The notes: a model not told the origin generated them from the letters alone. 64,000 nt of DNA from a bacterium (GCA_021786355.1 JAJYNK010000009.1:517-64516), one strand, 5' to 3'; shown: positions 5,031 through 59,700, counted from the first letter of the stretch. Numbers and translations: made by a program.

Positions 5031-5534
5031 TTAATCCTTAAACTTGTTTAAAAACCGTTCCTCGTCATAAATTCCCCATTTATAAAGCCGGTACAACGAT
5101 TTGTGCCTATCGGAAACATCCGGATCGCTACCGATTTTTTCAAGCCAATTAACGAATTGAGTCCCTTTATATCCATGTAATTTCTTATAAAATAGAGGAA
5201 TTATTATGTCTTTTAATTGATCAAATTCTCGCACTATTAAAGTAGCCCTTCTTCCGCGTTTTACTCCATCTCCTTGCCATGATTTATGATTATAAATTTT
5301 ATTTCTCAGACCTAACTTTTCCTTAACTAATCTAATAAGTTTCTCGTCTCTTTCGTGCATTGCCAGCACAAATGCCGGTTGTTTTTGCTTTCTCCCATCA
5401 CTTTTTTTATATCCTGGAGTAAATGAGAAACATCCCTCTCCATCAATAAGCCCTCTTATATAATCAAAGGTTAATGGATTTGTTTCAAATTGTTTCGCGG
5501 CCAACATTGGCACCATATTTTTATATTGTATCAC
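5031..5534 (-). CDS. LAGLIDADG homing endonuclease (single-motif, homodimer type)
   Basis: YIRGLIDGEGCFSF is a canonical LAGLIDADG motif. At 167 aa it is free-standing. Confidence 0.8.
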   Translation of the reverse strand: MIQYKNMVPMLAAKQFETNPLTFDYIRGLIDGEGCFSFTPGYKKSDGRKQKQPAFVLAMHERDEKLIRLVKEKLGLRNKIYNHKSWQGDGVKRGRRATLIVREFDQLKDIIIPLFYKKLHGYKGTQFVNWLEKIGSDPDVSDRHKSLYRLYKWGIYDEERFLNKFKD

Positions 5535-13223: not shown

Positions 13224-14186
13224 TTGTTCAGCAAATTAACTAATCAACTAATTAACCAGACTGCAACACGCATGGCTGATATAAATAAACTACTTAAAAA
13301 CTATCTCGACTATCTTGAGATAGAGAAAGGCAGAACCAAAGAAACGCGGGAGAATTACGAACATTACTTAAAAACGTTTTTTGAATTTGCCAGAATAAAA
13401 TCCGAAAGCGATATCAACGCTGACAACGTAAGAGATTTTAGAATCTATCTGGCGCGGCTCCATAATCTTCGAGATGGTGAAAATTTTAAGCGCACAACTC
13501 AAAGCTATTATATAATAGCGCTTAGAAACTTTTTGAAATTTTTGGCGAAAAACGACTATAAAGTTTTGGCTTCGGAAAAAATCGAGCTTCCCAGGATCCC
13601 AAAACAACAAATAGACATAATGGAATACTCGGATTTGGAGCGGCTTATGGCGGCGCCCAAAACAACCGATTTAAAAGGGCTGCGCGACAAGGCGATTTTG
13701 GAAGTTTTGTTTTCAACCGGACTTCGAGTGTCGGAATTGTGCGCTTTAAACCGATATTTTGACTTGAATAGGGGAGAAATTTCCGTACGCGGTAAAGGCG
13801 GGAAAATACGAGTGGTATTTTTAGCCGACTCCGCTAAAAAAGCCATTAAAAATTATCTGGATAAACGAACCGACGCCGAAGAAGCTTTATTTGTGAGCTT
13901 AACCAAAGCAAAAAATCCAAAAGTGCTTGGAAGAATTATTCCTCGCACAGTCCAACGCTTGATAGATTTTTATGGAAGAAAGGCAGGCATCTCACAAAAA
14001 ATCCATCCGCATTTAATCCGACACAGCTTTGCCACTGATTTATTAATAGGCGGAGCGGATTTAAGGTCAGTACAGGAACTTTTAGGCCACAGCAATATCT
14101 CCACAACCCAGATTTATACGCACTTGACCAATAAAGAGCTTAAAGAAATACATAAAACTTTTCACGGGAGACGCAGGAGCGAGTAG
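13224..14186 (+). CDS. Tyrosine site-specific recombinase, XerC/XerD-like (true start possibly MADINK at 13272)
   Basis: Catalytic signatures LIRHSFATDLL (HxxR) and LGHSNISTTQIYTHL (Tyr) plus an N-terminal SAM-like core-binding domain. Confidence 0.85.
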   Translation: MFSKLTNQLINQTATRMADINKLLKNYLDYLEIEKGRTKETRENYEHYLKTFFEFARIKSESDINADNVRDFRIYLARLHNLRDGENFKRTTQSYYIIALRNFLKFLAKNDYKVLASEKIELPRIPKQQIDIMEYSDLERLMAAPKTTDLKGLRDKAILEVLFSTGLRVSELCALNRYFDLNRGEISVRGKGGKIRVVFLADSAKKAIKNYLDKRTDAEEALFVSLTKAKNPKVLGRIIPRTVQRLIDFYGRKAGISQKIHPHLIRHSFATDLLIGGADLRSVQELLGHSNISTTQIYTHLTNKELKEIHKTFHGRRRSE

Positions 14187-14324: not shown

Positions 14325-14486
14325 CTCTTCCCCCGTAATTTTTCGTTCATAAATAAACATGAAAAATTACTCCTCCAGAGCCGGGGTTTTAAAAAAGCAA
14401 AGCAGTTTGCTTTTTTAAATACCCTTCTCCTCCCTTGTGATGTAAAAACTATAAATCCCTTTGAAATCAAAGGGATTTATAGTTTG

Positions 14487-14568
14487 TGTCCTCGGTGGGA
14501 GTCGAACCCACAACCCTTACGGGATAGCGTCCTAAGCGCTACGCGTATTCCATTTCCGCCACGAGGAC
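14487..14568 (-). tRNA. tRNA-Leu (anticodon UAG), long variable arm
   Basis: Reverse complement folds as acceptor GTCCTCG/CGAGGAC, anticodon stem TAGCG/CGCTA with loop CTTAGGA, variable arm TCCCGTAAGGGTT, T arm GTGGG-TTCGACT-CCCAC. Confidence 0.8.
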
Positions 14569-14629: not shown

Positions 14630-14708
14630 CCCCGTAGTGAATTTTGACTTTATTAATTTTATAAATTAATGTCGCCTTTGGCGACTACAGTCAAAATCTA
14701 CTATAGTG
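14630..14708. repeat. Hairpin repeat, family H copy 1 (CCCCGTAGTGAATTTTGACT ... AGTCAAAATCTACTATAGTG) with inner hairpin GTCGCC-TTT-GGCGAC
   Basis: Seen in the sequence. Belongs with copies at 14831, 40933, 43802 and 56613. Confidence 0.8.
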
Positions 14709-14830
14709 TTGACTTTTAAATAATTTTATTGTATTATATCTCAATATTTTGGATTAGACAATCCCACACATAAATACTGTGTATGGGACAAACTATCCCA
14801 AAATTTGCTCTTATAAATAGTTTACGTCAA

Positions 14831-14909
14831 CCCGGTAGTGAAGCTTCGGCCGAAATAAATTTTATCCTCCGACGTAACGTCGGAGGAAAGCCGAAGTTCT
14901 ACTACGGGG
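14831..14909. repeat. Hairpin repeat, family H copy 2 (CCCGGTAGTGAAGCTTCGGCC ... GCCGAAGTTCTACTACGGGG) with inner hairpin CCTCCGACG-TAA-CGTCGGAGG
   Basis: Seen in the sequence, immediately upstream of the higher-GC operon starting at 14953. Confidence 0.8.
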
Positions 14910-14952: not shown

Positions 14953-15669
14953 ATGGCAGAAGAAAAGAAAGCTGATTTCAGCGCCGGAGAAGTTGGAAAA
15001 GAGCTCGGGATAACGGCAGGAGGTATTGCTGTTTTTGAACTCCTCAGAAAAGCCTGGGGGCTTATGAAGGTGGGGTCAAGAACCGCTGCCGCTGAAGTCA
15101 TTCGCGAAGTCGGGAGCAAGGCGGCCGCGGAAACGGCCAAAAAAGTGCAGGCGAAGATGAGCGATCATTACCGCGCCAAACTTCTTGTTTTTCTACAGAA
15201 GATGGAGTCTTCAACGGAACCGAGGCAGCAGAGCGCGGCAAAAACCATCAGAAAGAGGCAAGAGGACCGACAGTTTTGCCGGCCCCGGTCTTATTCTGAC
15301 GGCGGAAATTATCGACCCGGCGAAGAAAACCTTCTCGTGAATTGCCTCGGAAAAGTTCTAATACTCAAAGAACCTGAGAAAGAAGTAGCGGCAGAGGCGG
15401 CGGCGACAGAAAAAGAAACCATCAATTTCTTCGTCTGGCTCGGCGAACTCCCGCCTCAAGAATTCGACAGCGCGATTGAGTTTCTCAACCATGACATAGT
15501 TATGCAGTGGTTAAGAATGCTCGGCATTCGTTTCAACGAAATATTCGGTATCGTCGGTTCAGAACTACGTCCTTTCAACGATAAATGGGTTAAGTGGCTC
15601 AACAATCGCCGCACAGCACGCGGTCGGAGGACTGTAGAATATCAAAAGGAGGGCCCTCCTCATGCGTGA
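14953..15669 (+). CDS. Hypothetical protein (238 aa) in a higher-GC island
   Basis: GC visibly higher than the backbone. The stop overlaps the next start (ATGCGTGA), which suggests translational coupling. Confidence 0.5.
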   Translation: MAEEKKADFSAGEVGKELGITAGGIAVFELLRKAWGLMKVGSRTAAAEVIREVGSKAAAETAKKVQAKMSDHYRAKLLVFLQKMESSTEPRQQSAAKTIRKRQEDRQFCRPRSYSDGGNYRPGEENLLVNCLGKVLILKEPEKEVAAEAAATEKETINFFVWLGELPPQEFDSAIEFLNHDIVMQWLRMLGIRFNEIFGIVGSELRPFNDKWVKWLNNRRTARGRRTVEYQKEGPPHA

Positions 15670-16612
15670 AACTCTTAGTGAAATACTCCTAACGCTGCGG
15701 CTCATTCTCGACACAGTCATCACCGGCGCCGCGGACGCCGCCGAGGTCCTTGCCTTTGTCAGGGGCGAAAACAGAACCGATCTTGAAATATATCGGATCG
15801 GACTTTCACGGCTCGCGATTGCAGCGGCGCTTCTGCCTATACCAATCCTGCTTCTGGGAATTTTCGGATTCTCGATGTGGATTTCAATTGCGGGACTTAT
15901 TTGGGCGTTCTTCACGATCTTACTCTCTTTGCTGGCCGCGCCGATTGCGTTGATAATCGACGCGGTCTGGCACAGAACAACAGTAGGACTTGGAGAACGT
16001 TATGTTCGATTAACGCTACATGTTATTTTCGCCGAGTTATCGTTCGCAATAATGCTTATAGTCATTCCTATCGAGAAAAGACCTGAGTTGATCCCGTTGC
16101 TACTGCTCTTGGCCCTTATCATTTTTATTGGGACTCGTCTTTTTGGGGGCGCTTTCATCTTTAACGGAAGGGCAATAACGGTTGTTGCATCAATGATTTT
16201 CATCGCAATCGTCATTTCGTTGTTTCTCCCCCGCACAACGGCTCTCGCGAGAACCGCGGCGAGAGGAATCGATAATAATGTCGTTGCAGTATTTTCCTTA
16301 AATTCTCCTACGAAACCAACGGAAATAGGAACCAACCAGAAAATCCTCGTTGGGATGGAATTCCCGATCAAGCCAGGGGAGGATAATTATCTCTTCGCAA
16401 CTTCGGTCAAGGGAAAACGAACCGAGTACAAGTTGGAGGCCAACCAGCCCATCATCATTCGCTCAGCCCAACCCGACGGTTCTTTAAGGGATTTTCGACT
16501 GGGACCCGGAAGGTTTGGCTGGGAGGTTTTAAGAGATCAACAGGCTGGGCAGCTTCGGGTGCGAAGCGAACAGCCTGCGGTTCTCCGAATTATTGACGTG
16601 AACGAAAGTTGA
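15662..16612 (+). CDS. Polytopic membrane protein (about 6 TM helices) with a C-terminal soluble domain, in a higher-GC island
   Basis: Long hydrophobic stretches (LLLGIFGFSMWISIAGLIWAFFTILLSLLAAPIALII, LLLLLALIIFIGTRLFGGAFIF, VVASMIFIAIVISLF) followed by a 110-aa hydrophilic tail. Confidence 0.5.
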   Translation: MRETLSEILLTLRLILDTVITGAADAAEVLAFVRGENRTDLEIYRIGLSRLAIAAALLPIPILLLGIFGFSMWISIAGLIWAFFTILLSLLAAPIALIIDAVWHRTTVGLGERYVRLTLHVIFAELSFAIMLIVIPIEKRPELIPLLLLLALIIFIGTRLFGGAFIFNGRAITVVASMIFIAIVISLFLPRTTALARTAARGIDNNVVAVFSLNSPTKPTEIGTNQKILVGMEFPIKPGEDNYLFATSVKGKRTEYKLEANQPIIIRSAQPDGSLRDFRLGPGRFGWEVLRDQQAGQLRVRSEQPAVLRIIDVNES

Positions 16613-16618
16613 TCTTTG

Positions 16619-16738
16619 CCCCGTTAGAGAAAAGTCGCCGCGAGCGACTGAAGTCGTGCTCTTAGCACGGCGTTCTCTAATGGGGTTTGCCCCGTTAGAA
16701 GTAGGACGCGTACGATGCGTCCGCGACTTCTAACGGTG
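16619..16738. repeat. Two tandem hairpin repeats of family B: CCCCGTTAGAGA...TCTCTAATGGGG (16619-16685) and CCCCGTTAGAAGT...ACTTCTAACGGTG (16690-16738)
   Basis: Each arm pair is complementary apart from single G-T and C-T mismatches. The inner parts hold small hairpins. Confidence 0.75.
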
Positions 16739-16742
16739 TTTG

Positions 16743-16793
16743 CCCCACTTGTACTTCAGCGCAAGAGCGCTGAAGTACAAGTGGGATTTTTTT
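16743..16793 (+). terminator. Terminator in the same hairpin style: CCCCACTTGTACTTCAGCGC-AAGA-GCGCTGAAGTACAAGTGGG followed by T7
   Basis: A 19-20-bp perfect stem plus a T-run ending the island. Confidence 0.8.
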
Positions 16794-17029: not shown

Positions 17030-17413
17030 TTATAAGTTTCCGGCAATTCCTCTTATTGCTGCGACTAGCCCTTTAGCAAGCAAGCCAACCGCGACAGATA
17101 CAAGAGCCCAGAGTATATGATTTCTTGCCGCTTTGGTTTTTGCTTCATCTCCGCCGGAAGTTAAAAACTGAAACGCTCCCCAAACAATAAAAACAACCGC
17201 CAAGGCAATTAATAATCCCAATAAATAATTAGCCACTGTATCTAGCGTATCGTACACATTAGAAAGGCCGGTTATGGGGATATTTCCGGGTTGTCCTTGG
17301 CCTGGCGGAGTAAATATCGCGGCAAACGAAAATACCGGCAACGCGAGCGATAAAATCGCTCCTGAATAAATAATACTTTGTAAAACTTTTTTCATTTTTT
17401 TGTATCGTATCAA
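17030..17413 (-). CDS. VirB2/TrbC-like pilin-family protein A (signal peptide, then two hydrophobic helices joined by TSGGD)
   Basis: YLLGLLIALAVVFIVWGAFQFLTSGGDEAKTKAARNHILWALVSVAVGLLAKGLV is the characteristic two-helix hairpin. Confidence 0.5.
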   Translation of the reverse strand: MIRYKKMKKVLQSIIYSGAILSLALPVFSFAAIFTPPGQGQPGNIPITGLSNVYDTLDTVANYLLGLLIALAVVFIVWGAFQFLTSGGDEAKTKAARNHILWALVSVAVGLLAKGLVAAIRGIAGNL

Positions 17414-17442
17414 TTCGACCTCGACCTTTTTCTTTATATTTA

Positions 17443-17853
17443 TTATAACGTTTGTATTATTCCGTACAACGCGCCGATGATTCCTCGCGCGAGTAAAATT
17501 ACTAATAATCCGATTGCGGCGTATAAAACTGTTTTTTGGCCTTCCTGGAATTTTTTAGGGTCGCCTGACGCGGTCATCATTTTCCAAGCGCCGTAGATAA
17601 CTATTATCACAGCCACAGAAACCGAAACGCCGATAAAATAATCGATTATTTTGGAAAGGACGCTATCAAGAGTCGAGCCGGATCCAAAATAATTAAAAAG
17701 CTGGCCGCTCCCGCCGCTAGCAGAAGGACTTGCTCCAGTTGGCTGACCGCCGCTTGTTGTCGGCTGACCTCCGCTTGTTTCGGCTAATTGATAAAAAGCA
17801 AACAAAGGCGCGACTTTAAGCCAATTCAAAATTTTTTTAATGTTTTTTCTCAT
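17443..17853 (-). CDS. VirB2/TrbC-like pilin-family protein B, with a low-complexity TSGGQPTTSGGQPT repeat
   Basis: DYFIGVSVSVAVIIVIYGAWKMMTASGDPKKFQEGQKTVLYAAIGLLVILLARGII has the same architecture as A and C. An imperfect 21-bp tandem repeat in the DNA encodes SGGQPT twice. Confidence 0.5.
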   Translation of the reverse strand: MRKNIKKILNWLKVAPLFAFYQLAETSGGQPTTSGGQPTGASPSASGGSGQLFNYFGSGSTLDSVLSKIIDYFIGVSVSVAVIIVIYGAWKMMTASGDPKKFQEGQKTVLYAAIGLLVILLARGIIGALYGIIQTL

Positions 17854-17994
17854 CCCAGTACTACAACTTCGATTATTTTTGTGTTAATTCTCGAGGTTGT
17901 GATTTATTGATTATTCTTATTTTTATTACCCAATATCAACTTAATTCAGGTTCTCAAAAATTTATAGAGAATGTATCGAAGTTGTAGTACTGGG
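17854..17994. repeat. 20-bp perfect inverted repeat CCCAGTACTACAACTTCGAT (17854-17873) / ATCGAAGTTGTAGTACTGGG (17975-17994) flanking a 101-bp AT-rich segment. The left arm abuts the ATG of pilin gene B.
   Basis: Arms verified base by base. The start codon of B (reverse complement of CAT 17851-17853) is immediately adjacent. Confidence 0.85.
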
Positions 17995-18026
17995 CATTTT
18001 TAAAATTATAAAAAATTTTTAACTGC

Positions 18027-18377
18027 TTAGCAAGGAAATTTATTCCATGGACCTAAACTGCCGCCGACAAGAACTTTCAAAACCAAATCAACTATGAACC
18101 CGGCTAAAAGAAGAATGGCTATGCCGATTAAGATAGTTCTTATTTTTCCAACCGCTTCTTTGTACTTTCCGGGATCTCCGGCAGAAGTCATTATTTTAAA
18201 CCCCGCCCAAACCAAAGCGCCGAGCGCCAAAACAAACGCGAAAACAATGACAAAATTATAAATATTTTGAGCTAACTGGAATAAATCGCAAATAGTACAT
18301 TCGAGCTTAGCCGTTCCCGGACCGCACTGAACTAAAGGGGTCAAAGCCGCATTGGCAATATTAACTAAATTAATCAT
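18027..18377 (-). CDS. VirB2/TrbC-like pilin-family protein C
   Basis: FVIVFAFVLALGALVWAGFKIMTSAGDPGKYKEAVGKIRTILIGIAILLLAGFIV. Confidence 0.5.
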   Translation of the reverse strand: MINLVNIANAALTPLVQCGPGTAKLECTICDLFQLAQNIYNFVIVFAFVLALGALVWAGFKIMTSAGDPGKYKEAVGKIRTILIGIAILLLAGFIVDLVLKVLVGGSLGPWNKFPC

Positions 18378-28387: not shown

Positions 28388-28460
28388 ACTTCGCGCCTAA
28401 TTATTTTTCTTTTGCAATTTGGAATTTAACTTTTTTTAGTGTTAAATAGATAAACAATGA

Positions 28461-28580
28461 ATCCCGTTAGAAATAATGAACAATATGACTTTATGTTATC
28501 AAATACTTTAATTTATAAAAACGTCGATTATTTAGCATTATTTAACTTTGGCACATTTTTTGTGCAATTTCTAACGGGAT
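28461..28580. repeat. Hairpin repeat, family B copy (ATCCCGTTAGAAAT ... ATTTCTAACGGGAT). The right arm overlaps the ATG of the next gene. Inner hairpin GCACA-TTTTT-TGTGC.
   Basis: 14-bp perfect arms about 92 nt apart. A motif ATGAACAA(T/C)AT occurs after both arms. Confidence 0.8.
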
Positions 28581-29163
28581 GAACAACATAGAAAATTATC
28601 GAAAACCTAAAATCTGCGTTTCCGGAACCGCAGAATTAAGCGATTTCAGCGAAAATACTAATTTAATCGCCGAAAAATTAGGCGAGGAAATAGCCAAACA
28701 AGGCGCGATTTTGGTTGATGGAGCAACAACCGGTTTTCCGCAATGGGCGGCAAAAGGCGCAAAAAATGTCGGGGGCTTTGTAATCGGATTTTCGCCGGCG
28801 GACACGGAAAAAAACCACGTTGAATTATTCGGACTGCCGACCGATTACCACGATATGATAGTTTATACCGGCTTCCATTATTCAGGGCGGAATTTAATTC
28901 TTACTCGATCTTCCGATGCGGTTATTGTCGGTCCGGGAAGAATCGGCACAATCAACGAATTCACCATAGCTTTTGAAGACAACAAGCCTTTGGGAATTTT
29001 ACAAGGCGATTGGGACACGGACGAAACTTTTAAAATGCTTATTGAAAAATCTCACCGCGCCCAGGAAAGGAAAGGAAAAATATTTTTTGATTCTAATCCT
29101 AAATCGTTGGTTGAAAAAATAATCGAAGCTATCAATAAAGAGACTTTAAAATACGAAAAATGA
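28579..29163 (+). CDS. LOG/TIGR00725-like Rossmann-fold protein
   Basis: VDGATTGFPQWAAKGA and VGPGRIGTINEF resemble the GGGxGxMG and PGGxGTxxE motifs of the LOG family. Confidence 0.6.
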   Translation: MNNIENYRKPKICVSGTAELSDFSENTNLIAEKLGEEIAKQGAILVDGATTGFPQWAAKGAKNVGGFVIGFSPADTEKNHVELFGLPTDYHDMIVYTGFHYSGRNLILTRSSDAVIVGPGRIGTINEFTIAFEDNKPLGILQGDWDTDETFKMLIEKSHRAQERKGKIFFDSNPKSLVEKIIEAINKETLKYEK

Positions 29164-39666: not shown

Positions 39667-39786
39667 TTTATTAACACCTTACGAACAAAATCTCTTGCTT
39701 TAAAACGCCGATTACTGATAATATGCCTTTAGAACACTGCTAATTTAAAATTCTGAGCTTATATAAAATTTGAGGAGGTGTTTGGG

Positions 39787-40803
39787 ATGAAGAAAATCGG
39801 TCCGATTCCATTAGAACAACTTGTCAAAGACGATGTTAACCGAGTAATCCAACATGCTTCAATAATTATTTCGCTCACGCCCGAAGGACCTATGATTTTC
39901 GCCAACCCGAAGCCGACGTTAAATGTACTGGCGGTTATTGGACCCGGAATAGGAACTCCTTTTAAACGCTTTTTTGAACGAGCCCTGCTTTTGGAAGTGG
40001 GCATTGGAGTTGGACGGCCTTACCACGAAGCAAAAAGTTCGATTGAAAAAACATCCAGCGGCAAGCCAAAAAGCATCCCAAAACGCCGTAAATGGTTTCG
40101 TCTTACCGAACAGCAATATATCCAGGTGGCTTCGTGGATTTTCCCCTGTTTGCAAGAAATCACCAACCAGAAAGTAGCGAATTGGAAATGCAATCATGAA
40201 AGTCCGTTTTTTATTCCGACTTCCCGCCACTACTTTTCTCGCCATCAAAAAACCCTTTTCATCGAAGAGGGGTACAAATCGTGGCCGCGGGGGACGCGCT
40301 TTGCCGTATCGCTTGAAGACCGCTTCTTGCTCTCCGATATTTACTGGGCGGAAAAACACAACCCCGACTTGCGCCGGCGCCTGAAAGGTCTCGCTAAATT
40401 TATAGATCTGCGGCTTAATTTCTCCGGCGCCAAAAAAACAAAAAGTCGTCCTCGCAAAGAATTCCGGGAGCTAAAACGTTTTGTACAAGTTGCCGGAATA
40501 CTTGAGAAACGCAACTTGCCGGTCCGGCACATTGTTGACCTCCTTGATTTTCTGCCGCTGAAAAATGGTCGCAGCCGCAGCCTGTATTACTACGAGATTT
40601 CTCACTTACTCGGCTATACCGGCGAAGAATTTAGGGAGGAAAAATTCGTCCATCAGGCATTGGCCAACCCGAGCCAACGACTCAACGGCATTAAGCTCCG
40701 AATCACTACTGGCCTCTCATGCCGGGACCATATTGTTTTTGAAATATCCACCAATCTCCCCGTGGGAGAAGAGATGCCTCTTCCCGCGCCTGTCCCCAAA
40801 TAG
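39787..40803 (+). CDS. Hypothetical protein (about 339 aa from ATG 39787; the ORF track starts at GTG 39778)
   Basis: GAGGAGG RBS 8 nt upstream of ATG 39787. Basic, moderately GC-rich. No family recognised. Confidence 0.5.
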   Translation: MKKIGPIPLEQLVKDDVNRVIQHASIIISLTPEGPMIFANPKPTLNVLAVIGPGIGTPFKRFFERALLLEVGIGVGRPYHEAKSSIEKTSSGKPKSIPKRRKWFRLTEQQYIQVASWIFPCLQEITNQKVANWKCNHESPFFIPTSRHYFSRHQKTLFIEEGYKSWPRGTRFAVSLEDRFLLSDIYWAEKHNPDLRRRLKGLAKFIDLRLNFSGAKKTKSRPRKEFRELKRFVQVAGILEKRNLPVRHIVDLLDFLPLKNGRSRSLYYYEISHLLGYTGEEFREEKFVHQALANPSQRLNGIKLRITTGLSCRDHIVFEISTNLPVGEEMPLPAPVPK

Positions 40804-40932
40804 CATAAATTGCCGGGGGTGGGCGCTTTTTTTGTGATTGCGGGTTTTTTGAGTAATATTTGCTAACCCCTTGACACCAACAACCGCCATGATAAAATGG
40901 ATTATTATCGCTTAACAGGCGATTTTTTGTTT

Positions 40933-41009
40933 GCCCTGTAGTGAATTTTGGCTTGATAAAATCTGATTTTATTCGCTTTTGGCGAAGACAGCCAAAATCT
41001 ACTACTGGG
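40933..41009. repeat. Hairpin repeat, family H copy 3 (CCCTGTAGTGAATTTTGGCT ... GCCAAAATCTACTACTGGG)
   Basis: Seen in the sequence. A half-copy (ATATGCCCGGTTAGTGAAAAAACGATTGATT) follows at 41024-41059. Confidence 0.8.
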
Positions 41010-41023
41010 TTGAAAAATCAAAA

Positions 41024-41059
41024 ATATGCCCGGTTAGTGAAAAAACGATTGATTTCTAC
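41024..41059. repeat. Left member of a 36-bp inverted-repeat pair (AAAATATGCCCGGTTAGTGAAA[A/C]AACGAT[T/C]GATT). The partner lies at 43690-43725 in reverse orientation.
   Basis: About 33 of 36 bases identical after reverse-complementing. The pair flanks a 2.7-kb segment. Confidence 0.7.
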
Positions 41060-41180
41060 AGCTTTTTTCCAACCAAACCGTCGCTGGGCATAAATTAACT
41101 AAAAACATAATTTTAGGTAAAACAGAGGCGAAACAAATTAAAATCTTATTTTAATTTAGATCGTTTTTCTACTACCGGGT

Positions 41181-41696
41181 ATGGGTAAACGTCTAGCTTT
41201 TTTACTTGCTTTAACCAGTATAAACCTGGTTTTTGCCGCAGAGGAGCTTACATTCGCAAACCCTAAAACTAACGGGTTTGACAGTAAAAAATTGGCTTCG
41301 AGTGAATCTACAGTGATGATTTTTGACGGCGCAGTGGCGTCAAAATCAGCTCTGGCAAACACAAAACAGCTGAAAACCGCGATTTCTTATGAAGTTGCGG
41401 ATGTGGATAGAGTAACCGTAACCGGTTATTCCAGCACCGAATCCGAAACCGACGAAACGCCGTTTATAACCGCTACCGGCAAATATGTTTTCCCGGGAGT
41501 GGCGGCCAGCAATGTCCTGCCTATCGGAACCAAATTCCGCTTGCCAAGTCTCTTTGGCGACAGAATTTTCGTTGTCGAAGACAGAATGCATTCAAGATAT
41601 AACGGCAAAAAATGGGTAGATGTCTGGTTTGACAGTCAGGACAAAGCTCTAAAATTTGGCAAGAGATTTTCATCGATTGAAATTTTAGAGGGCTAA
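41181..41696 (+). CDS. Secreted 3D-domain (MltA/RlpA-like double-psi barrel) protein
   Basis: Signal peptide MGKRLAFLLALTSINLVFA. C-terminal segment VTVTGYSS..DETPFITATGKYVFPGVAASNVLPIGTKFRLP..VVEDRMHSRY..VDVWFDS. Confidence 0.6.
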   Translation: MGKRLAFLLALTSINLVFAAEELTFANPKTNGFDSKKLASSESTVMIFDGAVASKSALANTKQLKTAISYEVADVDRVTVTGYSSTESETDETPFITATGKYVFPGVAASNVLPIGTKFRLPSLFGDRIFVVEDRMHSRYNGKKWVDVWFDSQDKALKFGKRFSSIEILEG

Positions 41697-41741
41697 TTCC
41701 TCAGAATATTCCTTCGGAACTAGTCGAATAGAATCGACCAA

Positions 41742-41773
41742 CCCCGCCAGTCTATGGACTGGCGGGGTTTTTT
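41742..41773 (+). terminator. Rho-independent terminator CCCCGCCAGTC-TATG-GACTGGCGGGG followed by T6
   Basis: Directly after the 3D-domain gene. Confidence 0.8.
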
Positions 41774-41967
41774 ACGCGGGCGACCATGATTTTCACTACT
41801 CGCGCGCGCCTCGCTAAGCTCGGCACGGCTGCGTTCTAAAACCCTGCGGTTTTAGTATTTCCGCAACGGGAAAACGAGTTTTCCCGACCCCTTTCTTGGC
41901 GGTTCAAATCCGCGATTCACATCAGAAAAATAAAACAACAGTTTCGACTGTTGTTTTATTTTTCTTG

Positions 41968-42041
41968 CGCGGGCGACCGGATTTGAACCGGCGACCTCTG
42001 CCGTGACAGGGCAGCGCTCTACCAGACTAAGCTACGCCCGC
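41968..42041 (-). tRNA. tRNA-Asp (anticodon GUC)
   Basis: Reverse complement folds as acceptor GCGGGCG/CGCCCGC, anticodon stem CTGCC/GGCAG with loop CTGTCAC, T arm GCCGG-TTCAAAT-CCGGT. The 5' end overlaps the last 15 nt of the LAGLIDADG ORF. Confidence 0.8.
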
Positions 42042-42695
42042 TTGCCGGTATATATTATATTTTCTCCTTAAATAAATCAACTTTTCTGGATTACGCTCGT
42101 ACATGAACATAAATAATTTTCCTGAGTCCCTAATAGAATAATTTAGATACCAAGAATTATCGCTTTTTTTAAAAAGTGATCCTGTAAGATTTATCGAATC
42201 CGATAAGGCCTTTTTTAACTCCTTGATAAAAACTTCGCTTCCTGAAGTAAACCGGCTAAGAAGTACTCGCGATTTGTTTTTTCGATCCGCTTTTTTAAAA
42301 AACCCGAATGAAACATTTCCGCCTCCATCAAAATAACCTCGCACAAAGTGGCAAAAATATTTACTTGGGACGCGTGGTAATTTTATTGTTTTGCTTTTTG
42401 CCGGAGTAAGACCTAATTTTATTAAGTCACAAAACATGGCCTTACTCCCTATTTGCAATCTATAAACGGTCTTGTGCTTTTTATCTCTTTGAATAATCGA
42501 AATTTTATGGTTTGATTCAAGAGTTTTTTGAATTTCTCTTAATAAATCCGCGTCTGTAATTTGAAACTCTATAAAATGCGCGCCTCTTTTGTTTTTAAGC
42601 ATATTCCCATCCGCCGTGAAAAACCCCAAAATATACGCCATTTCCGGAGTCCATTTTTTGAAAAAATTTTCGTTTTTTGTTTTATAAATCGGCAT
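42027..42695 (-). CDS. LAGLIDADG homing endonuclease (two-motif, monomeric type)
   Basis: Motifs AYILGFFTADGN and HFVRGYFDGGGNVSF. Confidence 0.8.
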   Translation of the reverse strand: MPIYKTKNENFFKKWTPEMAYILGFFTADGNMLKNKRGAHFIEFQITDADLLREIQKTLESNHKISIIQRDKKHKTVYRLQIGSKAMFCDLIKLGLTPAKSKTIKLPRVPSKYFCHFVRGYFDGGGNVSFGFFKKADRKNKSRVLLSRFTSGSEVFIKELKKALSDSINLTGSLFKKSDNSWYLNYSIRDSGKLFMFMYERNPEKLIYLRRKYNIYRQAGVA

Positions 42696-42729
42696 TTATA
42701 CCAATTTTACCACAAAAAACATGGATTTT

Positions 42730-43563
42730 TTACTTCGGTTTTATAACTATAAATCTTTTCTTCCACCCTTTTTTAAATTCCTCTGTTGTGGCTTTTCTCT
42801 CAATAAGATTTGGATTGTTTATGTCGGGATCGGCGAATAAAACAATGTCGCCGTCTATCCCAAAAATAACCACCAAATGTCCGCCGTTTTGCGGATTTAG
42901 ATTCTTATATATGGAAGCTATGACCGGCCCGTTTTTTAACTCTTCAATCATTCGTTCAAAAGCGGTTTCCGTTTCTTCTTTCGCGAAATCAAATCTATTG
43001 CCCCTTAAACCAAAGTGTTTTACTGCGGCGTCTATTAATCCTTGATGCAGCCACCCTATGTTTTCTACATAAGCTTTGTTTTTGACCCCGTCGGAAATTA
43101 TAAAGTCAACTAAAAATTCGGAAAGTTTTTTCATCTTATCTTCGTCTACGTTTTTTGTCGGCCAAGCTCTTTCCAAGTGGTATAGTATACTATACCACTT
43201 GACTGAGTCGTGTTCGTCTAATAATTCGTTGAGTTTGTTTGTTTCGTTGCTTATCCAGTTTGCGTCATTTACGCTAGAAATAATCTTTGAATCTTTTAAA
43301 AGTTTTTTAATCGCTTTAACTACGTTTGGATCTTTTTTTGAAACACAATAAATCACAATCATCGCCAAAGAAGCGGGACCGCAGACTCTTTTTGCCCAAA
43401 ATTCGTTGCAGCCGTCGCCTTCGCAAAGCCCCTGTCCGTCCGGCAGGCGGGCATACCCGCTTTTGCCGATATCCAAATGCTGAGAAATGTTAACCGGAAG
43501 ATGGTGGCGAATTAAGAATTTTTTTTCCCGTCTTTTGTCCTGTTTTTTATTTATCGTATTCAT
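42730..43563 (-). CDS. Papain-like cysteine peptidase, C39-like family (Peptidase_C39_2-like)
   Basis: Cys box RVCGPASLAMIVIY and a C-terminal GGHLVVIFGIDGDIVLFADPD His/Asp region. The CDS contains a 26-bp perfect palindrome encoding KWYSILYHL. Confidence 0.5.
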   Translation of the reverse strand: MNTINKKQDKRREKKFLIRHHLPVNISQHLDIGKSGYARLPDGQGLCEGDGCNEFWAKRVCGPASLAMIVIYCVSKKDPNVVKAIKKLLKDSKIISSVNDANWISNETNKLNELLDEHDSVKWYSILYHLERAWPTKNVDEDKMKKLSEFLVDFIISDGVKNKAYVENIGWLHQGLIDAAVKHFGLRGNRFDFAKEETETAFERMIEELKNGPVIASIYKNLNPQNGGHLVVIFGIDGDIVLFADPDINNPNLIERKATTEEFKKGWKKRFIVIKPK

Positions 43564-43771
43564 GCCCGGTAGTAGAACAACGATTTATAAATCAAATATT
43601 TCTAAATATTTGATTTATTCCGTTTATTTAAATTAGATTTGTTTATTTATAAATATCTTTATATTTTACCCTTCAATGATTTAATAACCAGAAAAGGAAT
43701 CGATCGTTGTTTCACTAACCGGGCATATTTTGTTAAATCTACTTGATATTGAAATTATTGCAATATTTTAC

Positions 43772-45971
<2,200 letters not shown>

Positions 45972-56601: not shown

Positions 56602-56612
56602 GAGAGCGATAT

Positions 56613-56756
56613 GCCCCGTTAGTGAAGCTTCGGCCGATTAAATTTTTATTGATAAATAGTTAACCAAAAATAACCAAACTTTAAAAAAATGAAAGAGTCG
56701 TTGATAATAAAATTTAATTTGCCTTCGGCAAAAAAGCCGAAGCTCTACTACGGGGT
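56613..56756. repeat. Hairpin repeat, family H copy 5 (GCCCCGTTAGTGAAGCTTCGGCC ... GGCCGAAGCTCTACTACGGGGT), forming the whole dnaE 5' leader. Its 3' end abuts the dnaE ATG.
   Basis: Seen in the sequence. Inner hairpin TGCC-TTCG-GCA. About 100 nt of AT-rich spacer. Confidence 0.8.
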
Positions 56757-59700
56757 ATGAAGTTTGTCCATCTACATACTCATTCTCATTTTTCTCTTCT
56801 TGATGGACTTATTAAAATAGATGAACTTGTTTCCCGCGCCAAAGAATTAGGCATGGAGGCCCTGGCTTTGACGGATCACGGCAATCTTTACGGAGCCGTT
56901 GAGTTTTATAAAAAAGCGACTAAGGCCGGGATCAAACCGATTTTAGGAATGGAGGCGTATGTCGCGCCGACAAGCCGCTTTGAAAAAAATGGAAAAGAAA
57001 ATAAATACCGCCACCTTACTTTATTGGCCGAAAATCAAACCGGATGGCAGAATTTAATAAAAATTTCCACCAAAGCGCATCTTGAAGGATTTTATTACAA
57101 ACCGCGCGCGGACAAAGAACTTTTAAAAGAGCACAGCGAAGGCCTTATCGCGATGTCGGGATGCTTGGGCGGAGAGATCCCCCAATTAATTTTGGAAAAT
57201 AAATTTATCGACGCGGAAAAAGTTGCGCGCGAATACCAAATTATTTTCGGAGAAAATAATTTTTTCCTGGAAGTTTGGCACCACCCGAATATCGAAGGAA
57301 TGGAAAAAGTTAAAAATGGAATAATCGAGCTGGGAAGAAAATTAAATATTCCTCTTGTCGCCACTCAAGACATTCATTACTTAAATCCCGACGACGGAAA
57401 ATATCACGATATTCTTTTGGCGGTGCAGACCGGAAACAAAGTCGAAGACGATGACCGCTTGAGTTTGCGAGCCGATGATTTTTCAATGCGGCCTCCGGAA
57501 ATTATGGCGGAACTTTTTAAAGATTTGCCGGAAGCGCTGGAAAACACGAATAAAATTTCCGATCGCTGCGACGTCAAATTAAGCATAGGAAAAATCCATC
57601 TTCCAAAATTTTCTTTGCCCGAAGGAGAAACTTGCAGCAATAAATTTTTAAGAAAATTAATCGGCGAACAGATTTCGCGAAGATTTCCGGAAATAAACGA
57701 AGAGATAAAAAACCGTTTCGAATATGAACTCGACGTTATTGAAAAAATGGGGTTTGCCGACTACTTTTTAATCGTTTCCGATTTTGTGAATTGGGCCAAA
57801 GCCCATGGGATTATGGTCGGGCCAGGAAGGGGTTCGGCTGCCGGAAGCATTATTTCTTATATTTTGGGAATTACGGATGTCGATCCTTTAAAATACGATT
57901 TACTTTTTGAAAGATTTTTAAATCCCGACCGCATACAGCTCCCGGATATCGATTTGGATTTTGCCGATACCCGCAGAGACGAAGTTCTGGATTATGTAAG
58001 AAATAAATACGGAGAAGACAGGGTTGCGCAAATAATCACTTTCGGGACAATGGCTGCCAGAGCCTCCATTCGCGACGCCGGAAGGGCTTTAGGCATGCCT
58101 TACAGCTTTTGCGACCAGATAGCCAAGCTGATTCCTTTCAATATGGATTTAACACAGTCTCTGGAGGCTGTTTCGGAGCTAAGACAATTATACGAAACCA
58201 GTCCGGACGCCAAAAACATAATAGACGCGGCAAAAAAATTGGAAGGAGTGGCTCGGCACGCTTCGGTCCACGCTTGCGGGGTGGTGATTTCAAATGAAGA
58301 ATTGACTTGCCATTTGCCGCTTCAGCGCTCTCCCCAGCAAGAGAATATAACTATCACACAATTTGAAATGCACAATGTCGAAGACCTCGGGCTTCTTAAA
58401 ATGGACTTCCTGGGCCTTAAAAACCTAACCATTATCGAAAACACAATGCGATTGGTTGCCGAAAGCGGAGGCGGTAAAATTAATTTGTCGGAGATTCCTT
58501 TTGACGACAAAGAAACTTTTTTGATTTTGCAAAAAGGAGATACGACCGGAGTTTTTCAATTGGAATCTTCCGGAATGAGAAGATATTTAAAAGAATTAAA
58601 GCCTACGGAATTTGAAGATATTGTCGTGATGGTCGCTCTTTACCGGCCGGGACCAATGGATCTTATTCCATCTTATATAGCCAGAAAATACGGCAAAGAA
58701 GAGGTTGTCTATTTGCATCCTCAACTCGAGCCGATTCTTAAAGGAACCCACGGAATAGGAATTTATCAAGAACAAATGATGAGAATCGCGCGCGACTTAG
58801 CCGGATTTACGCTTTCGGAAGCGGACACTTTAAGAAAAGCGATCGGGAAGAAAATCAAAGAGTTGCTAGATCAGCAGAGAGGAAAATTAATAGAGGGAAT
58901 GAAGGCTAGAGGGATTGAAGAAAAAACCGCGTTAAAAATTTGGGAATTATTCCCGCCTTTTGCCAGATACGGATTTAACAGAAGCCACGCGGTTTGTTAC
59001 GCGCTGATTGCGTATCAAACGGCTTATTTGAAAGCGCGATATCCTTTGGAATTTGCAACGGCGCTTTTCAACGCCGACAGCGGCGACGTGGAAAGGGCCG
59101 CCTTTCTAATAACCGAGGTGAAAAAAATGGGCATAGCGGTTTTACCGCCGGATATCAATTCTAGTTTTATGAATTTTACGCCCGAGGGAAAAAACATCCG
59201 TTTTGGATTATTGGCGATTAAAAATGTGGGATCAAACGTCGTTGAGGCGATTATCGAAGAAAGACAAAGAGGAGGGCCGTTTTTAGACCTAATCGATTTT
59301 TTAAAAAGAGTTACGCATAAAGATTTAAACCGAAAATCTTTGGAGAGTTCGATAAAAGCCGGAGTGTTCGATTCGTTTAAAATAAGCCGGGGAAAGCTTT
59401 TGGCCAACTTGGATGAAATTTTAAGATTCAGCCAGCAAAATAAAAAAAGCGCGGATACGACACAGAACAATCTTTTTGGCGACGCGTATTTCGGAGGAGG
59501 CTTGGACCTTAAAGCCGATATGCCGATTTCCAGCAAAGACAGATTGCTTTGGGAGAAAGAACTTTTAGGTTTATTTGTGTCAGGACATCCAATGAATGAA
59601 TACGCGGCGAAACTTGAAGAAAAAAACGTAAGATTTATAAGAGAACTTATTGCCAGTAGCCGAGGTAAAAATAATTTCCATAAAAGGCATAGAATCGCGG

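What the first reader, a model, noticed from the sequence alone, without database searches (positions are those of the whole stretch)
41024..43725. 2.7-kb segment bounded by 36-bp inverted repeats containing a 3D-domain secreted protein, tRNA-Asp, a LAGLIDADG endonuclease abutting the tRNA and a C39-like peptidase
AAAATATGCCCGGTTAGTGAAA.AACGAT.GATT at 41024-41059 recurs as its reverse complement at 43690-43725 with about 3 mismatches. Inside, an 11-nt duplicate of the tRNA-Asp 3' end (CGCGGGCGACC at 41783 and again inside the tRNA at about 41967) lies 185 bp away. The two-motif LAGLIDADG gene overlaps the tRNA-Asp 5' end by 15 nt on the same strand. Inverted repeats flanking a tRNA-containing segment could allow inversion. 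The tRNA-adjacent homing endonuclease and the duplicated tRNA end point to past mobile-element activity at this tRNA.
Basis: partly seen in the sequence, partly recalled or inferred. Interest (0 to 1): 0.55.

Follow-up and report, generated by a model that had tools for sequence, protein, structure and literature searches.

The report
Hairpin repeats, not an invertible segment
The two inverted repeats are separate copies of a small palindromic mobile-looking repeat that sits exactly on the start codons of two facing genes in a Wolfebacteria-like (candidate phyla radiation) bacterium, and the LAGLIDADG gene belongs to a widespread nuclease family that always lodges directly in front of tRNA-Asp; nothing indicates that the 2.7-kb stretch flips or moves as a unit.

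Summary
The inverted repeat is real (37 nt, 92%, none expected by chance), but it does not bound a unit. Each arm is the outer end of a separate 150-160-nt palindromic, MITE-like element: E41 on the + strand and E43 on the - strand. Each lies between a duplicated (T)ATG on the start codon of a gene (the YuiC/3D-like gene and the C39-like gene). These genes converge, so the copies are inverted.

The 64-kb window holds at least 8 further relatives of this repeat. Two of them also sit on start codons, of dnaE and of a SLOG-family gene. Syntenic relatives show clean empty sites and the same gene order. All 37 same-species contigs have one orientation.

The LAGLIDADG gene is a separate insertion, absent from six syntenic relatives. 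Its family is Patescibacteria-wide. In about 78 of 80 species loci it ends within a few bases of, or 10-15 nt inside, tRNA-Asp(GUC). [quoted passage not shown] The window's copy alone has lost the catalytic Asp of motif 2.

The duplicated tRNA 3' end flanks a third insertion, a terminator plus a 149-nt structured module. That module recurs behind tRNAs in other Patescibacteria.

The inversion reading is not supported. Mobile-element activity at this tRNA is supported.

The parts
40934..41009 (+). S40: short (76 nt) palindromic repeat CCCTGTAGTGAA...TCTACTACTGGG in the leader of the 3D-like gene, flanked by TTG/TTG
   Evidence: (I6). Absent at the orthologous place in L014, L016 and L104.
41025..41183 (+). 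E41: long (151 nt) palindromic repeat 41029-41179 (CCCGGTTAGTGAA...TCTACTACCGGG) between direct repeats TATG (41025-41028) and TATG (41180-41183). The second ATG is the start codon of the 3D-like gene.
   Evidence: I1, I3, I9; fold z=-3.2. Empty site aaaaatatATGagtaaacg in L014. Orthologous copies in L107 and, degenerate, in L015.
41181..41696 (+). 171-aa exported protein, weakly YuiC/3D-like
41740..41769 (.). G+C-rich hairpin (terminator T2) shared by the converging transcription units. In L015 it follows the tRNA-Asp 3' end directly.
   Evidence: (I25)
41775..41923 (-). 149-nt structured module that ends in an 11-nt copy of the tRNA-Asp 3' end (41775-41785). Together with T1 it forms a ~190-nt insertion behind the tRNA.
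   Evidence: Absent in L015. Homologues lie behind tRNA-Asp or tRNA-Met in L067, L069 and L080. No Rfam match.
41924..41965 (-). Perfect 19-bp hairpin plus T-run (terminator T1) directly after tRNA-Asp
   Evidence: I5
41967..42041 (-). tRNA-Asp(GTC), uninterrupted
   Evidence: 71 bits
42027..42695 (-). Free-standing double-motif LAGLIDADG endonuclease gene (222 aa). The last 5 codons plus the stop lie inside the tRNA, and the tRNA's promoter-like TTGATT-15-TATAAT lies in its 3' end. Motif 2 reads DGGG instead of the family's DGDG.
42730..43563 (-). C39-like papain-fold peptidase gene (277 aa)
43561..43727 (-). E43: long (159 nt) palindromic repeat 43565-43723 between TATG (43724-43727) and CATG (43561-43564) on the - strand. 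The second ATG is the C39 start codon.
   Evidence: (I1, I3, I10). Empty sites aacaaaa(c/t)ATG in L014, L015 and L016. Orthologous copy in L107 with TATG/TATG.
43798..43875 (+). S43: short (70 nt) palindromic repeat 43802-43871 between AATA/AATA, inserted just after the -10 box of the ligA promoter
   Evidence: (I2). Empty site gatggtATAATAaaacaaaaATG in L014.
56610..56759 (+). E56: third long copy (56614-55) between TATG/TATG on the dnaE start codon.
   Evidence: Empty sites in three relatives (alignment A7).
28457..28583 (+). Related palindromic element 28463-28578 between ATGAA(T)/ATGAA(C) on the start codon of a SLOG/LOG-like gene
14631..14908 (+). S14a (14631-~14705, 3' end degenerate) and S14b (14831-14908, TCAA/TCAA): two more short copies upstream of gene 14953

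Best explanation
Three unrelated small insertions lie close together around a conserved converging gene pair. The first of them produces the inverted repeat.

(1) Palindromic repeats. E41 and E43 are two old copies of a non-coding, MITE-like repeat with these features:
- terminal inverted repeats CCCNG(T)TAGTGAA / TTCTACTACNGGG;
- a variable A+T-rich interior;
- 3-5-bp target duplications.
The long subfamily has landed each time on the ATG of a gene whose empty-site configuration is '-10 box, 9 nt, ATG', meaning a leaderless or nearly leaderless start. The insertion duplicates the ATG, so the gene keeps a start codon behind the element. Because the 3D-like and C39 genes face each other, the two copies are inverted, and their matching ends read as a 37-nt inverted repeat 2.6 kb apart.
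- Shown: copies, termini, duplications and empty sites.
- Inferred: transposition by an unidentified transposase, targeting of transcription-start or leaderless-start regions, and some RNA-level processing or an internal start that keeps dnaE and the other genes expressed.

(2) The LAGLIDADG gene. It is a free-standing homing endonuclease gene of a Patescibacteria-wide family that occupies the spacer directly 5' of tRNA-Asp(GUC), typically between tRNA-Met and tRNA-Asp, and reads into the tRNA.
- It most likely spreads by intronless homing: it cleaves endonuclease-less tRNA-Asp loci, and repair from a donor co-converts the tRNA.
- It may also act in trans for the ORF-less group I intron found in the same tRNA in a quarter of carriers.
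- The window's copy has lost one catalytic Asp and is probably a decaying or nicking remnant.
- Shown: insertion, family-wide position, substitution.
- Inferred: homing mechanism and target.

(3) The duplicated tRNA 3' end. It brackets a ~190-nt insertion (terminator plus 149-nt hairpin-rich module) at the 3' side of the tRNA. This is the footprint of a miniature integrative element or a small RNA gene that duplicates the local tRNA end.
For: Repeat family:
- Both ends of the two elements match in inverted orientation (I1, I3), and each element folds on itself (I9, I10).
- The core motifs are enriched in the window: 6 TCTACTAC against 0.37 expected, and 5 GTAGTGAA against 0.73 expected.
- A structural scan finds 9 distinct elements (18 hits counting both strands and overlapping start positions) against 0-2 hits in shuffles.
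- Flanking duplications are TATG/TATG, TATG/CATG, TATG/TATG, ATGAA/ATGAA, AATA/AATA, TCAA/TCAA and TTG/TTG.
- Empty sites in syntenic relatives are seen for E41, E43, S40 and S43 and for E56.
- An E-like copy between TATG/TATG lies before an ORF in an unrelated Patescibacterium, L081.
- 7 of 7 orientable copies are co-oriented with the downstream gene (p=0.016).

No inversion:
- Searches cover 37 contigs.
- L107, which has both copies, has the same order.

Endonuclease:
- PF14528.
- 1167 homologues and 363 species genomes.
- tRNA-Asp lies on the same strand within -24..+56 nt of the stop in 56/80 loci. It is interrupted by a group I intron in the other 22, which makes about 78/80 in all.
- tRNA-Met lies upstream in 41/80 loci, abutting within 10 nt in 12 of them.
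- The gene is absent from L014-L016, L104, L107 and L109.
- A 58%-identical copy sits at the same junction in L108, while the flanking genes there are ~78-80% identical.
- DGDG is present in 80/80 relatives, against DGGG in every strain of this species.
- The intron is enriched: 22/78 here against 3/95 in PMC13011429 (Fisher p=4e-6).

Module:
- Empty site in L015.
- Compensatory changes in three hairpins.
- Homologues exist whose 3' end copies the local tRNA: L069 twice, once behind tRNA-Met with ~60 nt duplicated, and L080.
Against: - No transposase with matching ends was found. 45 window ORFs scanned against Pfam gave none, so mobility is inferred from copies, duplications and empty sites only.
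- The distribution is patchy against relatedness. E41 and E43 occur in the window and in the more distant L107 and L015, but not in the closer L014, L104 and L016. This requires precise loss, repeated insertion at the same site, or recombination.
- How a gene such as dnaE is translated behind a 146-nt hairpin with no Shine-Dalgarno sequence is unexplained.
- The endonuclease family is unusually well preserved: 77/80 ORFs are intact and all keep their catalytic residues. That could also mean a domesticated function.
- Its target site is unknown.
- The 149-nt module's 3' end does not match the local tRNA in L067.
- All comparisons rest on metagenome assemblies.
Confidence: 0.8

Rival explanations
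1. One reading: the 2.7-kb segment is an invertible (or otherwise IR-bounded) unit. Recombination between the 37-nt arms flips it and swaps the promoters of the 3D-like and C39 genes.
For: - The arms are real and 92% identical.
- Both lie between a promoter and a start codon, so an inversion would be tolerated in principle.
- A tyrosine recombinase gene exists 27 kb away.
Against: - No recombinase lies in or next to the segment.
- 37 same-species contigs and L107, which has both arms, show one orientation.
- Relatives without the arms have the same order.
- The arms are parts of longer elements that recur elsewhere as single copies.
Confidence: 0.03
2. The two repeat copies form a composite transposon that moved the 3D-like gene, tRNA-Asp, the endonuclease gene and the C39 gene together.
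For: Two related elements in inverted orientation flank a gene set.
Against: - Each copy has its own matched duplication (TATG/TATG and TATG/CATG), not one shared across the outer ends.
- The enclosed genes are in the same place and order in six relatives that lack one or both copies.
Confidence: 0.02
3. The hairpin elements are primarily cis-regulatory leader RNAs that control translation or stability of the downstream gene, for example by sequestering the start codon. They are not selfish mobile DNA, or they are former mobile elements now kept for such a role.
For: - All orientable copies are co-oriented with the downstream gene.
- The base of the long hairpin pairs the region around both AUGs.
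- Arms are 92-96% conserved between the window and L107. Interiors are 79% (E41) and 88% (E43) conserved.
- Copies sit in front of essential genes (dnaE, ligA), so they must be compatible with expression.
Against: - The elements show presence/absence polymorphism with target duplications.
- The downstream genes are functionally unrelated.
- No Rfam family matches.
- The stem has only bulges and no G-U asymmetry, so the sequence gives no evidence for which strand, or for RNA rather than DNA.
Confidence: 0.25
4. The LAGLIDADG protein is a domesticated, vertically kept factor for the tRNA-Asp locus, such as an intron maturase or a WhiA-like DNA binder, rather than an active homing endonuclease.
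For: - 77/80 ORFs are intact at a strictly conserved position.
- There is a weak WhiA-type LAGLIDADG hit.
- The gene is associated with an intron-bearing tRNA in 22/80 loci.
Against: - Catalytic Asp residues are kept in 80/80 relatives.
- The gene is present or absent among close relatives.
- The two copies at the same locus are only 58% identical, against ~80% for the flanks.
- 56/80 carriers have no intron.
Confidence: 0.15
5. The 149-nt module is a genuine small RNA gene whose tRNA-like 3' end is functional (processing, CCA addition or mimicry). On this view it is not an integration footprint.
For: - Three compensatory pair changes and three wobble pairs favour the tRNA strand.
- Identity is ~90% where the flanking genes are 80-87% identical.
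- The core AAAGGGGYCGGGRAAAC is conserved in distant genomes.
Against: - Only four close sequences support the fold.
- The repeat copies whichever tRNA lies upstream, including its terminator in L069, as an integration would.
- L015 has a clean empty site.
- A strong terminator separates the module from the tRNA, and no promoter was seen.
Confidence: 0.4

Closest known systems
Correia elements (CREE/NEMIS) of Neisseria, and similar bacterial MITEs (ERIC, RUP)
   Same: - 70-160-nt non-coding elements with terminal inverted repeats.
- Short target duplications.
- Many dispersed copies in intergenic leaders.
- Co-transcription with neighbouring genes as long hairpins.
   Different: - Those duplicate TA and are not tied to start codons.
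- Here the long subfamily sits on the ATG of leaderless-type genes in 4 of 4 window cases, plus one in L081.
- Duplications are 3-5 bp of varied sequence.
- No cognate transposase is known.
- The host is a Patescibacterium.
REP/BIME sequences mobilised by RAYT (Y1) transposases
   Same: Short imperfect palindromes containing GTAG, sometimes in tandem at gene ends. The sister family at 16619-16738 looks like this.
   Different: - In REPs the GTAG lies 5' of the stem and there is no target duplication.
- Here GTAG is inside the stem and duplications are present.
- No Y1 transposase was found among 45 window ORFs.
Free-standing homing endonucleases: phage T4 SegB in the tRNA gene cluster, and F-CphI / MobE ('collaborative' or trans homing; review PMC3984707)
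   Same: - The endonuclease gene lies outside any intron, wedged next to a conserved gene.
- The distribution is sporadic.
[quoted passage not shown]
   Different: - Those are GIY-YIG or HNH enzymes of phages.
- This is a double-motif LAGLIDADG enzyme in cellular genomes.
- Its ORF fills the tRNA-Met/tRNA-Asp spacer and terminates inside the tRNA.
- Its cleavage site is untested.
Group I introns at position 35/36 of tRNA-Asp and tRNA-Asn in Patescibacteria (PMC13011429)
   Same: The same phylum and the same tRNA. I see these introns in 22 of the 80 endonuclease-bearing loci (RF00028 hits).
   Different: - The window's tRNA-Asp has no intron.
- That paper looked for endonuclease genes only inside introns and concluded that mobility is limited.
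- It does not mention the endonuclease gene immediately upstream of the tRNA.
Integrative elements at tRNA 3' ends and their deleted derivatives (CIME-type remnants)
   Same: - A direct repeat of the tRNA 3' end brackets the inserted DNA.
- A relative has an empty site.
- The region behind the tRNA is variable: different genes lie there in L016, L104, L107 and L108.
   Different: - Only ~190 nt lie between the repeats, with no integrase.
- The same small module recurs in distant genomes.
Site-specific DNA inversion switches (Hin/Gin, fim, shufflons)
   Same: Inverted repeats a few kb apart with promoters outside them.
   Different: - No adjacent recombinase.
- No orientation variants.
- The repeats belong to a dispersed family.

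Membership tests
Invertible DNA segment (site-specific inversion switch) | Inverted repeats that mark the exact boundaries of the segment | tested here: not met
   The arms are the outer ends of two complete ~155-nt elements, which also match at their inner ends (I1, I3). Single copies of the same element occur elsewhere.
Invertible DNA segment (site-specific inversion switch) | Recombinase gene inside or adjacent | tested here: not met
   Pfam on all ORFs of 39778-45971 gives no recombinase. The nearest tyrosine recombinase is at 13224-14186.
Invertible DNA segment (site-specific inversion switch) | Both orientations present in a population | tested here: not met
   24 + 13 assembled contigs from many samples show one orientation. 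Raw reads could not be examined.
MITE (non-autonomous inverted-repeat transposable element) | Terminal inverted repeats shared by all copies | tested here: met
   CCCNG(T)TAGTGAA / TTCTACTACNGGG is present in 7 copies.
MITE (non-autonomous inverted-repeat transposable element) | Target-site duplication flanking each copy | tested here: met
   Matched repeats of 3-5 nt, with a different sequence at different copies.
MITE (non-autonomous inverted-repeat transposable element) | Empty sites in related genomes | tested here: met
   E41, E43, S40, S43 and E56.
MITE (non-autonomous inverted-repeat transposable element) | Small and non-coding | tested here: met
   The elements are 70-160 nt. No ORF of 40 aa or more lies within them.
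MITE (non-autonomous inverted-repeat transposable element) | A cognate autonomous element or transposase with the same ends | tested here: inconclusive
   None among 45 window ORFs.
LAGLIDADG homing endonuclease, double-motif monomer | Two LAGLIDADG motifs in one chain | tested here: met
   PF14528. The motifs are ILGFFTADG and VRGYFDGGG.
LAGLIDADG homing endonuclease, double-motif monomer | An acidic catalytic residue at the end of each motif | tested here: not met
   Motif 1 has Asp. Motif 2 has Gly at position 125, where 31/31 aligned and 80/80 genomic relatives have Asp. The window protein is therefore a family member by descent but probably not an active double-strand endonuclease.
LAGLIDADG homing endonuclease, double-motif monomer | Sporadic distribution, with the gene inserted at a conserved target | tested here: met
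   The gene is absent from six syntenic relatives and present in L108. It lies next to tRNA-Asp in about 78/80 species loci.
LAGLIDADG homing endonuclease, double-motif monomer | Site-specific cleavage of the endonuclease-less allele | not testable with these tools
   Needs protein and substrate.
Intron-encoded homing endonuclease | ORF lies within a self-splicing intron | tested here: not met
   The window's tRNA-Asp is uninterrupted. No group I or II intron hit lies in 40700-44000 at E<=5. The ORF lies upstream of the tRNA.
tRNA-targeting integrative element (footprint) | Direct repeat of the tRNA 3' end at both junctions, and an empty site elsewhere | tested here: met
   The repeat is 11 nt, or 18 nt at 89% (D12). 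L015 is empty. In L069 and L080 the repeats copy their own tRNAs.
tRNA-targeting integrative element (footprint) | Integrase associated with the element | tested here: not met
   Only ~190 nt lie between the repeats and there is no ORF.

The most novel reading that the evidence does not exclude
The long hairpin elements are a mobile element that homes to the first bases of leaderless genes (the transcription start and start codon) and regenerates the ATG. Essential genes such as dnaE survive the insertion only because the ~150-nt hairpin is dealt with at the RNA level. Possible routes are:
- it is cut away to recreate a 5'-terminal AUG;
- it is skipped by the ribosome after the 3-codon mini-ORF AUG-CCC-GGU/CGU-UAG, in a shunt-like way;
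- it is replaced by an internal start.
Such a start-codon-specific insertion element, with an obligatory RNA-level rescue, has no described bacterial counterpart that I know of.

A second, less exotic novel reading concerns the free-standing LAGLIDADG family. It may be the missing mobility factor, by trans or 'collaborative' homing, for the ORF-less tRNA-Asp introns of Patescibacteria. I put that at about 0.35.
Probability: 0.15. Interest if true: 0.85.

Novelty: new variant of a known kind. Interest (0 to 1): 0.5.

Why it matters
The finding as written, an invertible tRNA-containing segment, can be dropped. Two things found while checking it are worth a specialist's attention.

First, a palindromic repeat family in a Wolfebacteria-like genome lands precisely on the start codons of leaderless-type genes, including dnaE, and duplicates the ATG. 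This raises a concrete, testable question about how translation starts behind such a hairpin in organisms with reduced translation machinery.

Second, a LAGLIDADG endonuclease family with hundreds of members sits fused to the 5' edge of tRNA-Asp across Patescibacteria. [quoted passage not shown] A 2026 survey (PMC13011429) concluded that these introns have little mobility because they lack internal endonuclease genes. An adjacent free-standing endonuclease would change that conclusion and would give a natural example of trans homing in cellular genomes.

Tried and rejected
- Rfam at gathering score on the whole window, and at E<=5 on 40700-44000, found only tRNAs and chance-level hits. No ribozyme, riboswitch or intron appeared.
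- I first read the conserved GUAGUGAA/UCUACUAC mismatches as G-U pairs pointing to an RNA on the gene strand. Re-aligned, the stem is perfect with one bulged base (two in the long form). The sequence therefore does not say RNA rather than DNA, or which strand.
- Translational bypass of the T4 gene 60 type does not fit. Take-off and landing codons do not match in E56 (CGU against GGU), and the arms are complementary rather than identical.
- Integron attC sites do not fit. The R''/R' core (RYYYAAC/GTTRRRY) is not matched, and the neighbouring genes are essential housekeeping genes.
- An outward promoter in the element's 3' end is unconvincing. The best candidate, TCTACT-7 nt-ATG, lacks the key A at position 2. 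The promoter scan found nothing there.
- For the 149-nt module I considered tmRNA, SRP RNA, RNase P RNA, Y RNA, a group I intron fragment and a pseudo-tRNA. None fits by eye, ARAGORN or Rfam.
- A viral-contig scan with the module's core 17-mer gave three matches that look like chance hits in coding DNA.
- Assembly breaks inside tRNA-Asp in many Logan contigs at first suggested a polymorphic junction. They are better explained by co-occurring relatives that share an identical tRNA segment. L016 is 100% identical over 99 nt.
- The strain-level block of near-zero divergence (41697-43886) might be a homing conversion tract. Similar blocks occur elsewhere (relA-dnaA), so I do not count it as evidence.

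Full report
**What is there.** The window comes from a Patescibacteria (CPR) genome close to Candidatus Wolfebacteria. Its DnaE is 90% identical to that of a Wolfebacteria MAG. Near-identical contigs sit in GCA_027423115.1 and GCA_027447115.1 and in several groundwater metagenomes.

The features between 40.9 and 43.9 kb, in order, are:
- a promoter (40871-40898);
- the short hairpin repeat S40;
- the long hairpin repeat E41;
- a 171-aa exported protein gene on the + strand;
- a shared terminator;
- a 149-nt structured module on the - strand;
- a second terminator;
- tRNA-Asp(GTC) on the - strand;
- a LAGLIDADG gene on the - strand;
- a C39-like peptidase gene on the - strand;
- the long repeat E43 on the - strand;
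- the short repeat S43 on the + strand;
- ligA on the + strand.

**Checking the observation.**
- The inverted repeat exists: 37 nt, 92%, at 41021-41057 and 43695-43731. No match occurred in 100 shuffles.
- The 11-mer CGCGGGCGACC lies at 41775-41785 and 41968-41978, 193 nt apart (D12).
- The tRNA, the 15-nt overlap of the LAGLIDADG ORF with it, and the C39-like assignment hold.
- The '3D domain' label is weak. Pfam gives nothing. The only support is a full-length but marginal match to YuiC (E=0.21).

**Why the inverted repeat does not bound a segment.** The repeat finder reports a second, inner inverted repeat, 41157-41183 with 43561-43587 (I3). Each outer arm also pairs with its own inner arm 110-118 nt away (I9, I10). 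So there are two complete elements of about 155 nt, one on each strand, each a long hairpin. E41 folds with z=-3.2.

Their ends, CCCGGTTAGTGAA... and ...TTCTACTACCGGG, recur in the window:
- a third long copy in front of dnaE (E56);
- four 70-78-nt copies without the extra T (S14a, S14b, S40, S43).

A structural scan finds 9 distinct elements (18 hits counting both strands and overlapping start positions) against 0-2 hits in shuffles. It also picks up a sister family (16619-16738) and a further element at 28463-28578.

Every copy is flanked by a short direct repeat whose sequence differs from copy to copy: TATG, TATG/CATG, TATG, ATGAA, AATA, TCAA, TTG.

Syntenic relatives were fetched through the C39, 3D-like and DnaE proteins.
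- They keep the order ligA - C39 - tRNA-Asp - 3D-like - 340 aa - 403 aa - recO.
- They show uninterrupted sites where the window has E43, E41, S40, S43 and E56.
- L107 shares E41 and E43, and L015 has a decayed E41.

These are the features of a MITE-like repeat: terminal inverted repeats, target duplications, multiple copies, no coding capacity and empty sites. I found no transposase among 45 window ORFs. Mobility is therefore inferred, not shown.

**Inversion.** None of the 24 contigs with the exact C39 protein, nor the 13 with the exact 3D-like protein, has the alternative arrangement. L107 carries both arms in the same arrangement. No recombinase is adjacent. Each copy has its own matched duplication, which also excludes a composite transposon. 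Only assemblies were available, not reads.

**An unexpected regularity.** All three long copies, the element at 28463, and an E-like copy in an unrelated Patescibacterium (L081) sit exactly on a start codon, with the ATG duplicated. In the empty sites the ATG lies 9 nt after a -10-like hexamer:
- dnaE: TATAAT-GAAAGCGAT-ATG;
- C39: TAAATT-TAACAAAAC-ATG;
- the SLOG gene: TTAAAT-AGATAAACA-ATG;
- the 3D-like gene: AAAAAT-CAAAAATAT-ATG.

These look like leaderless or nearly leaderless genes; that is an inference from spacing. After insertion the transcript should begin at the first AUG, which opens a 3-codon ORF ending in the UAG of GTTAG. The real AUG lies 150 nt downstream at the foot of the hairpin, with no Shine-Dalgarno sequence. 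Since dnaE is essential, the element must be compatible with expression. How it manages this is unknown. All seven orientable copies point the same way as the downstream gene (p=0.016).

**The LAGLIDADG gene.**
- The protein has two motifs (PF14528), 1167 homologues and relatives in 363 species genomes, all Patescibacteria-type MAGs.
- In 80 species loci, 56 have tRNA-Asp(GTC) on the same strand starting between 24 nt before and 56 nt after the ORF stop. The commonest overlaps are 10 nt (14 loci) and 15 nt (11 loci).
- In the 22 loci where ARAGORN found no tRNA, the tRNA-Asp 5' half is present and breaks off after CYUGU into a group I intron. RF00028 hits were found in all five tested.
- tRNA-Met lies upstream in 41 loci and directly abuts the ATG in 12.

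The family therefore occupies the tRNA-Met/tRNA-Asp spacer and reads into the tRNA. The C-terminal ...AGVA-stop is encoded by the tRNA's first 15 nt. The conserved LIYLxRKYxIY is encoded by the promoter-like TTGATT-15-TATAAT.

In the window's clade the upstream neighbour is C39 instead.
- Six relatives lack the gene.
- L108 has a copy at the same junction that is only 58% identical, although the flanking genes are about 78-80% identical.
- The clade carries three different tRNA-Asp alleles. The window's allele is 100% identical to that of L016 over 99 nt.

This fits repeated gene conversion at the locus, as expected for intronless homing (concept: PMC3984707).

Every relative keeps Asp at the end of both motifs (80/80). 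The window protein has Gly in motif 2 in all strains sampled. By the established two-active-site mechanism of these enzymes it should be at best a nickase.

The intron frequency among carriers is 22/78, against 3/95 among complete Patescibacteria genomes in PMC13011429 (p=4e-6). The samples differ and are not phylogenetically independent. That paper searched for endonuclease genes only inside introns, and does not mention this adjacent gene.

**The duplicated tRNA 3' end.** Read on the tRNA strand, the order is: tRNA-Asp, terminator T1, a 149-nt segment ending in GGTCGCCCGCG, then terminator T2.
- In L015 the tRNA is followed directly by T2. The T1 + 149 nt + repeat stretch is therefore an insertion or deletion bounded by the repeat.
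- The segment is about 90% conserved in L014, L104 and L109. Three hairpins show compensatory changes, and three wobble pairs favour the tRNA strand.
- A covariance model finds relatives directly behind tRNA-Asp in L067, L069 and L080, and behind tRNA-Met in L069.
- In L069 and L080 the 3' end of the segment copies the local tRNA. In one case it also copies about 45 nt of terminator.
- Its 5' part contains the reverse complement of a T-arm.
- Rfam has nothing like it.

I read it as a miniature integrative element or a small RNA gene that duplicates its tRNA target, with no preference between the two readings. The region behind this tRNA is variable in the relatives in any case.

**Verdict.** The inversion interpretation is not supported, and the 'mobile activity at the tRNA' interpretation holds. 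The inverted repeat itself is ordinary: two copies of a dispersed palindromic repeat.

Two points go beyond that:
- the start-codon specificity of the repeat;
- the phylum-wide joining of a LAGLIDADG gene to tRNA-Asp, with its possible link to the ORF-less tRNA introns.

Noticed in passing
window 28463-28578 (gene 28579-29163): Another palindromic element (CCCGTTAGAAAT...ATTTCTAACGGG) lies between ATGAA(T) and ATGAA(C), exactly on the start codon of a SLOG/LOG-like gene, 9 nt after a TTAAAT box.
   Followed up: partly
window 16619-16788: Two tandem hairpins of a sister repeat family (CCCCGTTAGAGAA.. and CCCCGTTAGAAGT..), each preceded by TTTG, are followed by a terminator, right after the stop of ORF 15662-16612. 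A similar hairpin lies upstream of the 340-aa gene in L014.
   Followed up: no
window 5031-5534 (-): A second, unrelated LAGLIDADG ORF (167 aa, PF00961) lies between a hypothetical gene and a UPF0102/YraN-like gene.
   Followed up: no
window 13224-14186 (+): A tyrosine recombinase (Phage_integrase plus SAM-like N-terminal domain) lies next to tRNA-Leu (14486-14568, -) and the repeats S14a/S14b. It could be XerC/D or an integrase of a tRNA-targeting element.
   Followed up: no
window 17030-18377 (-): Three consecutive small ORFs with type IV secretion pilin (PF18895) domains.
   Followed up: no
L018 3658-3987: A GIY-YIG ORF overlaps the 5' end of a tRNA-Met by 10 nt, immediately upstream of the LAGLIDADG/tRNA-Asp pair. 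A second nuclease family thus shows the same layout, joined to the front of a tRNA.
   Followed up: no
L033, L040, L042, L046, L055, L059, L060, L064, L069, L070, L072-L076, L079, L083, L084, L087, L092, L094, L096 (just after the LAGLIDADG stop): [quoted passage not shown] RF00028 hits were found in the five loci tested.
   Followed up: partly
window 41966-42064 vs L016 8672-8770: tRNA-Asp plus 23 nt upstream is 100% identical to a relative whose flanking genes are only 81-84% identical. Other relatives carry two other tRNA-Asp alleles. This suggests allele exchange at the tRNA.
   Followed up: partly
window 41697-43886 vs L001/L004: Between strains, this block (module, tRNA, endonuclease, C39, E43, S43) has 1 mismatch in 2190 nt, while the flanking 3D-like gene (2.3%) and ligA (1.6%) differ. 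The pattern is a mosaic recombination tract, and similar zero-divergence blocks occur elsewhere.
   Followed up: partly
window 40907-40933: The leader of the 3D-like gene carries a terminator-like hairpin (ATCGCTTAACAGGCGAT) followed by a T-run. It is conserved in relatives and could be an attenuator.
   Followed up: no
L096 3520-3600: Two tandem 32-nt hairpins (GACCCGAAGTGAAC..GTTCTACTTCGGGTC) lie behind tRNA-Asp in another Patescibacterium. They share the AGTGAA/TTCTACT core of the window's repeats.
   Followed up: no
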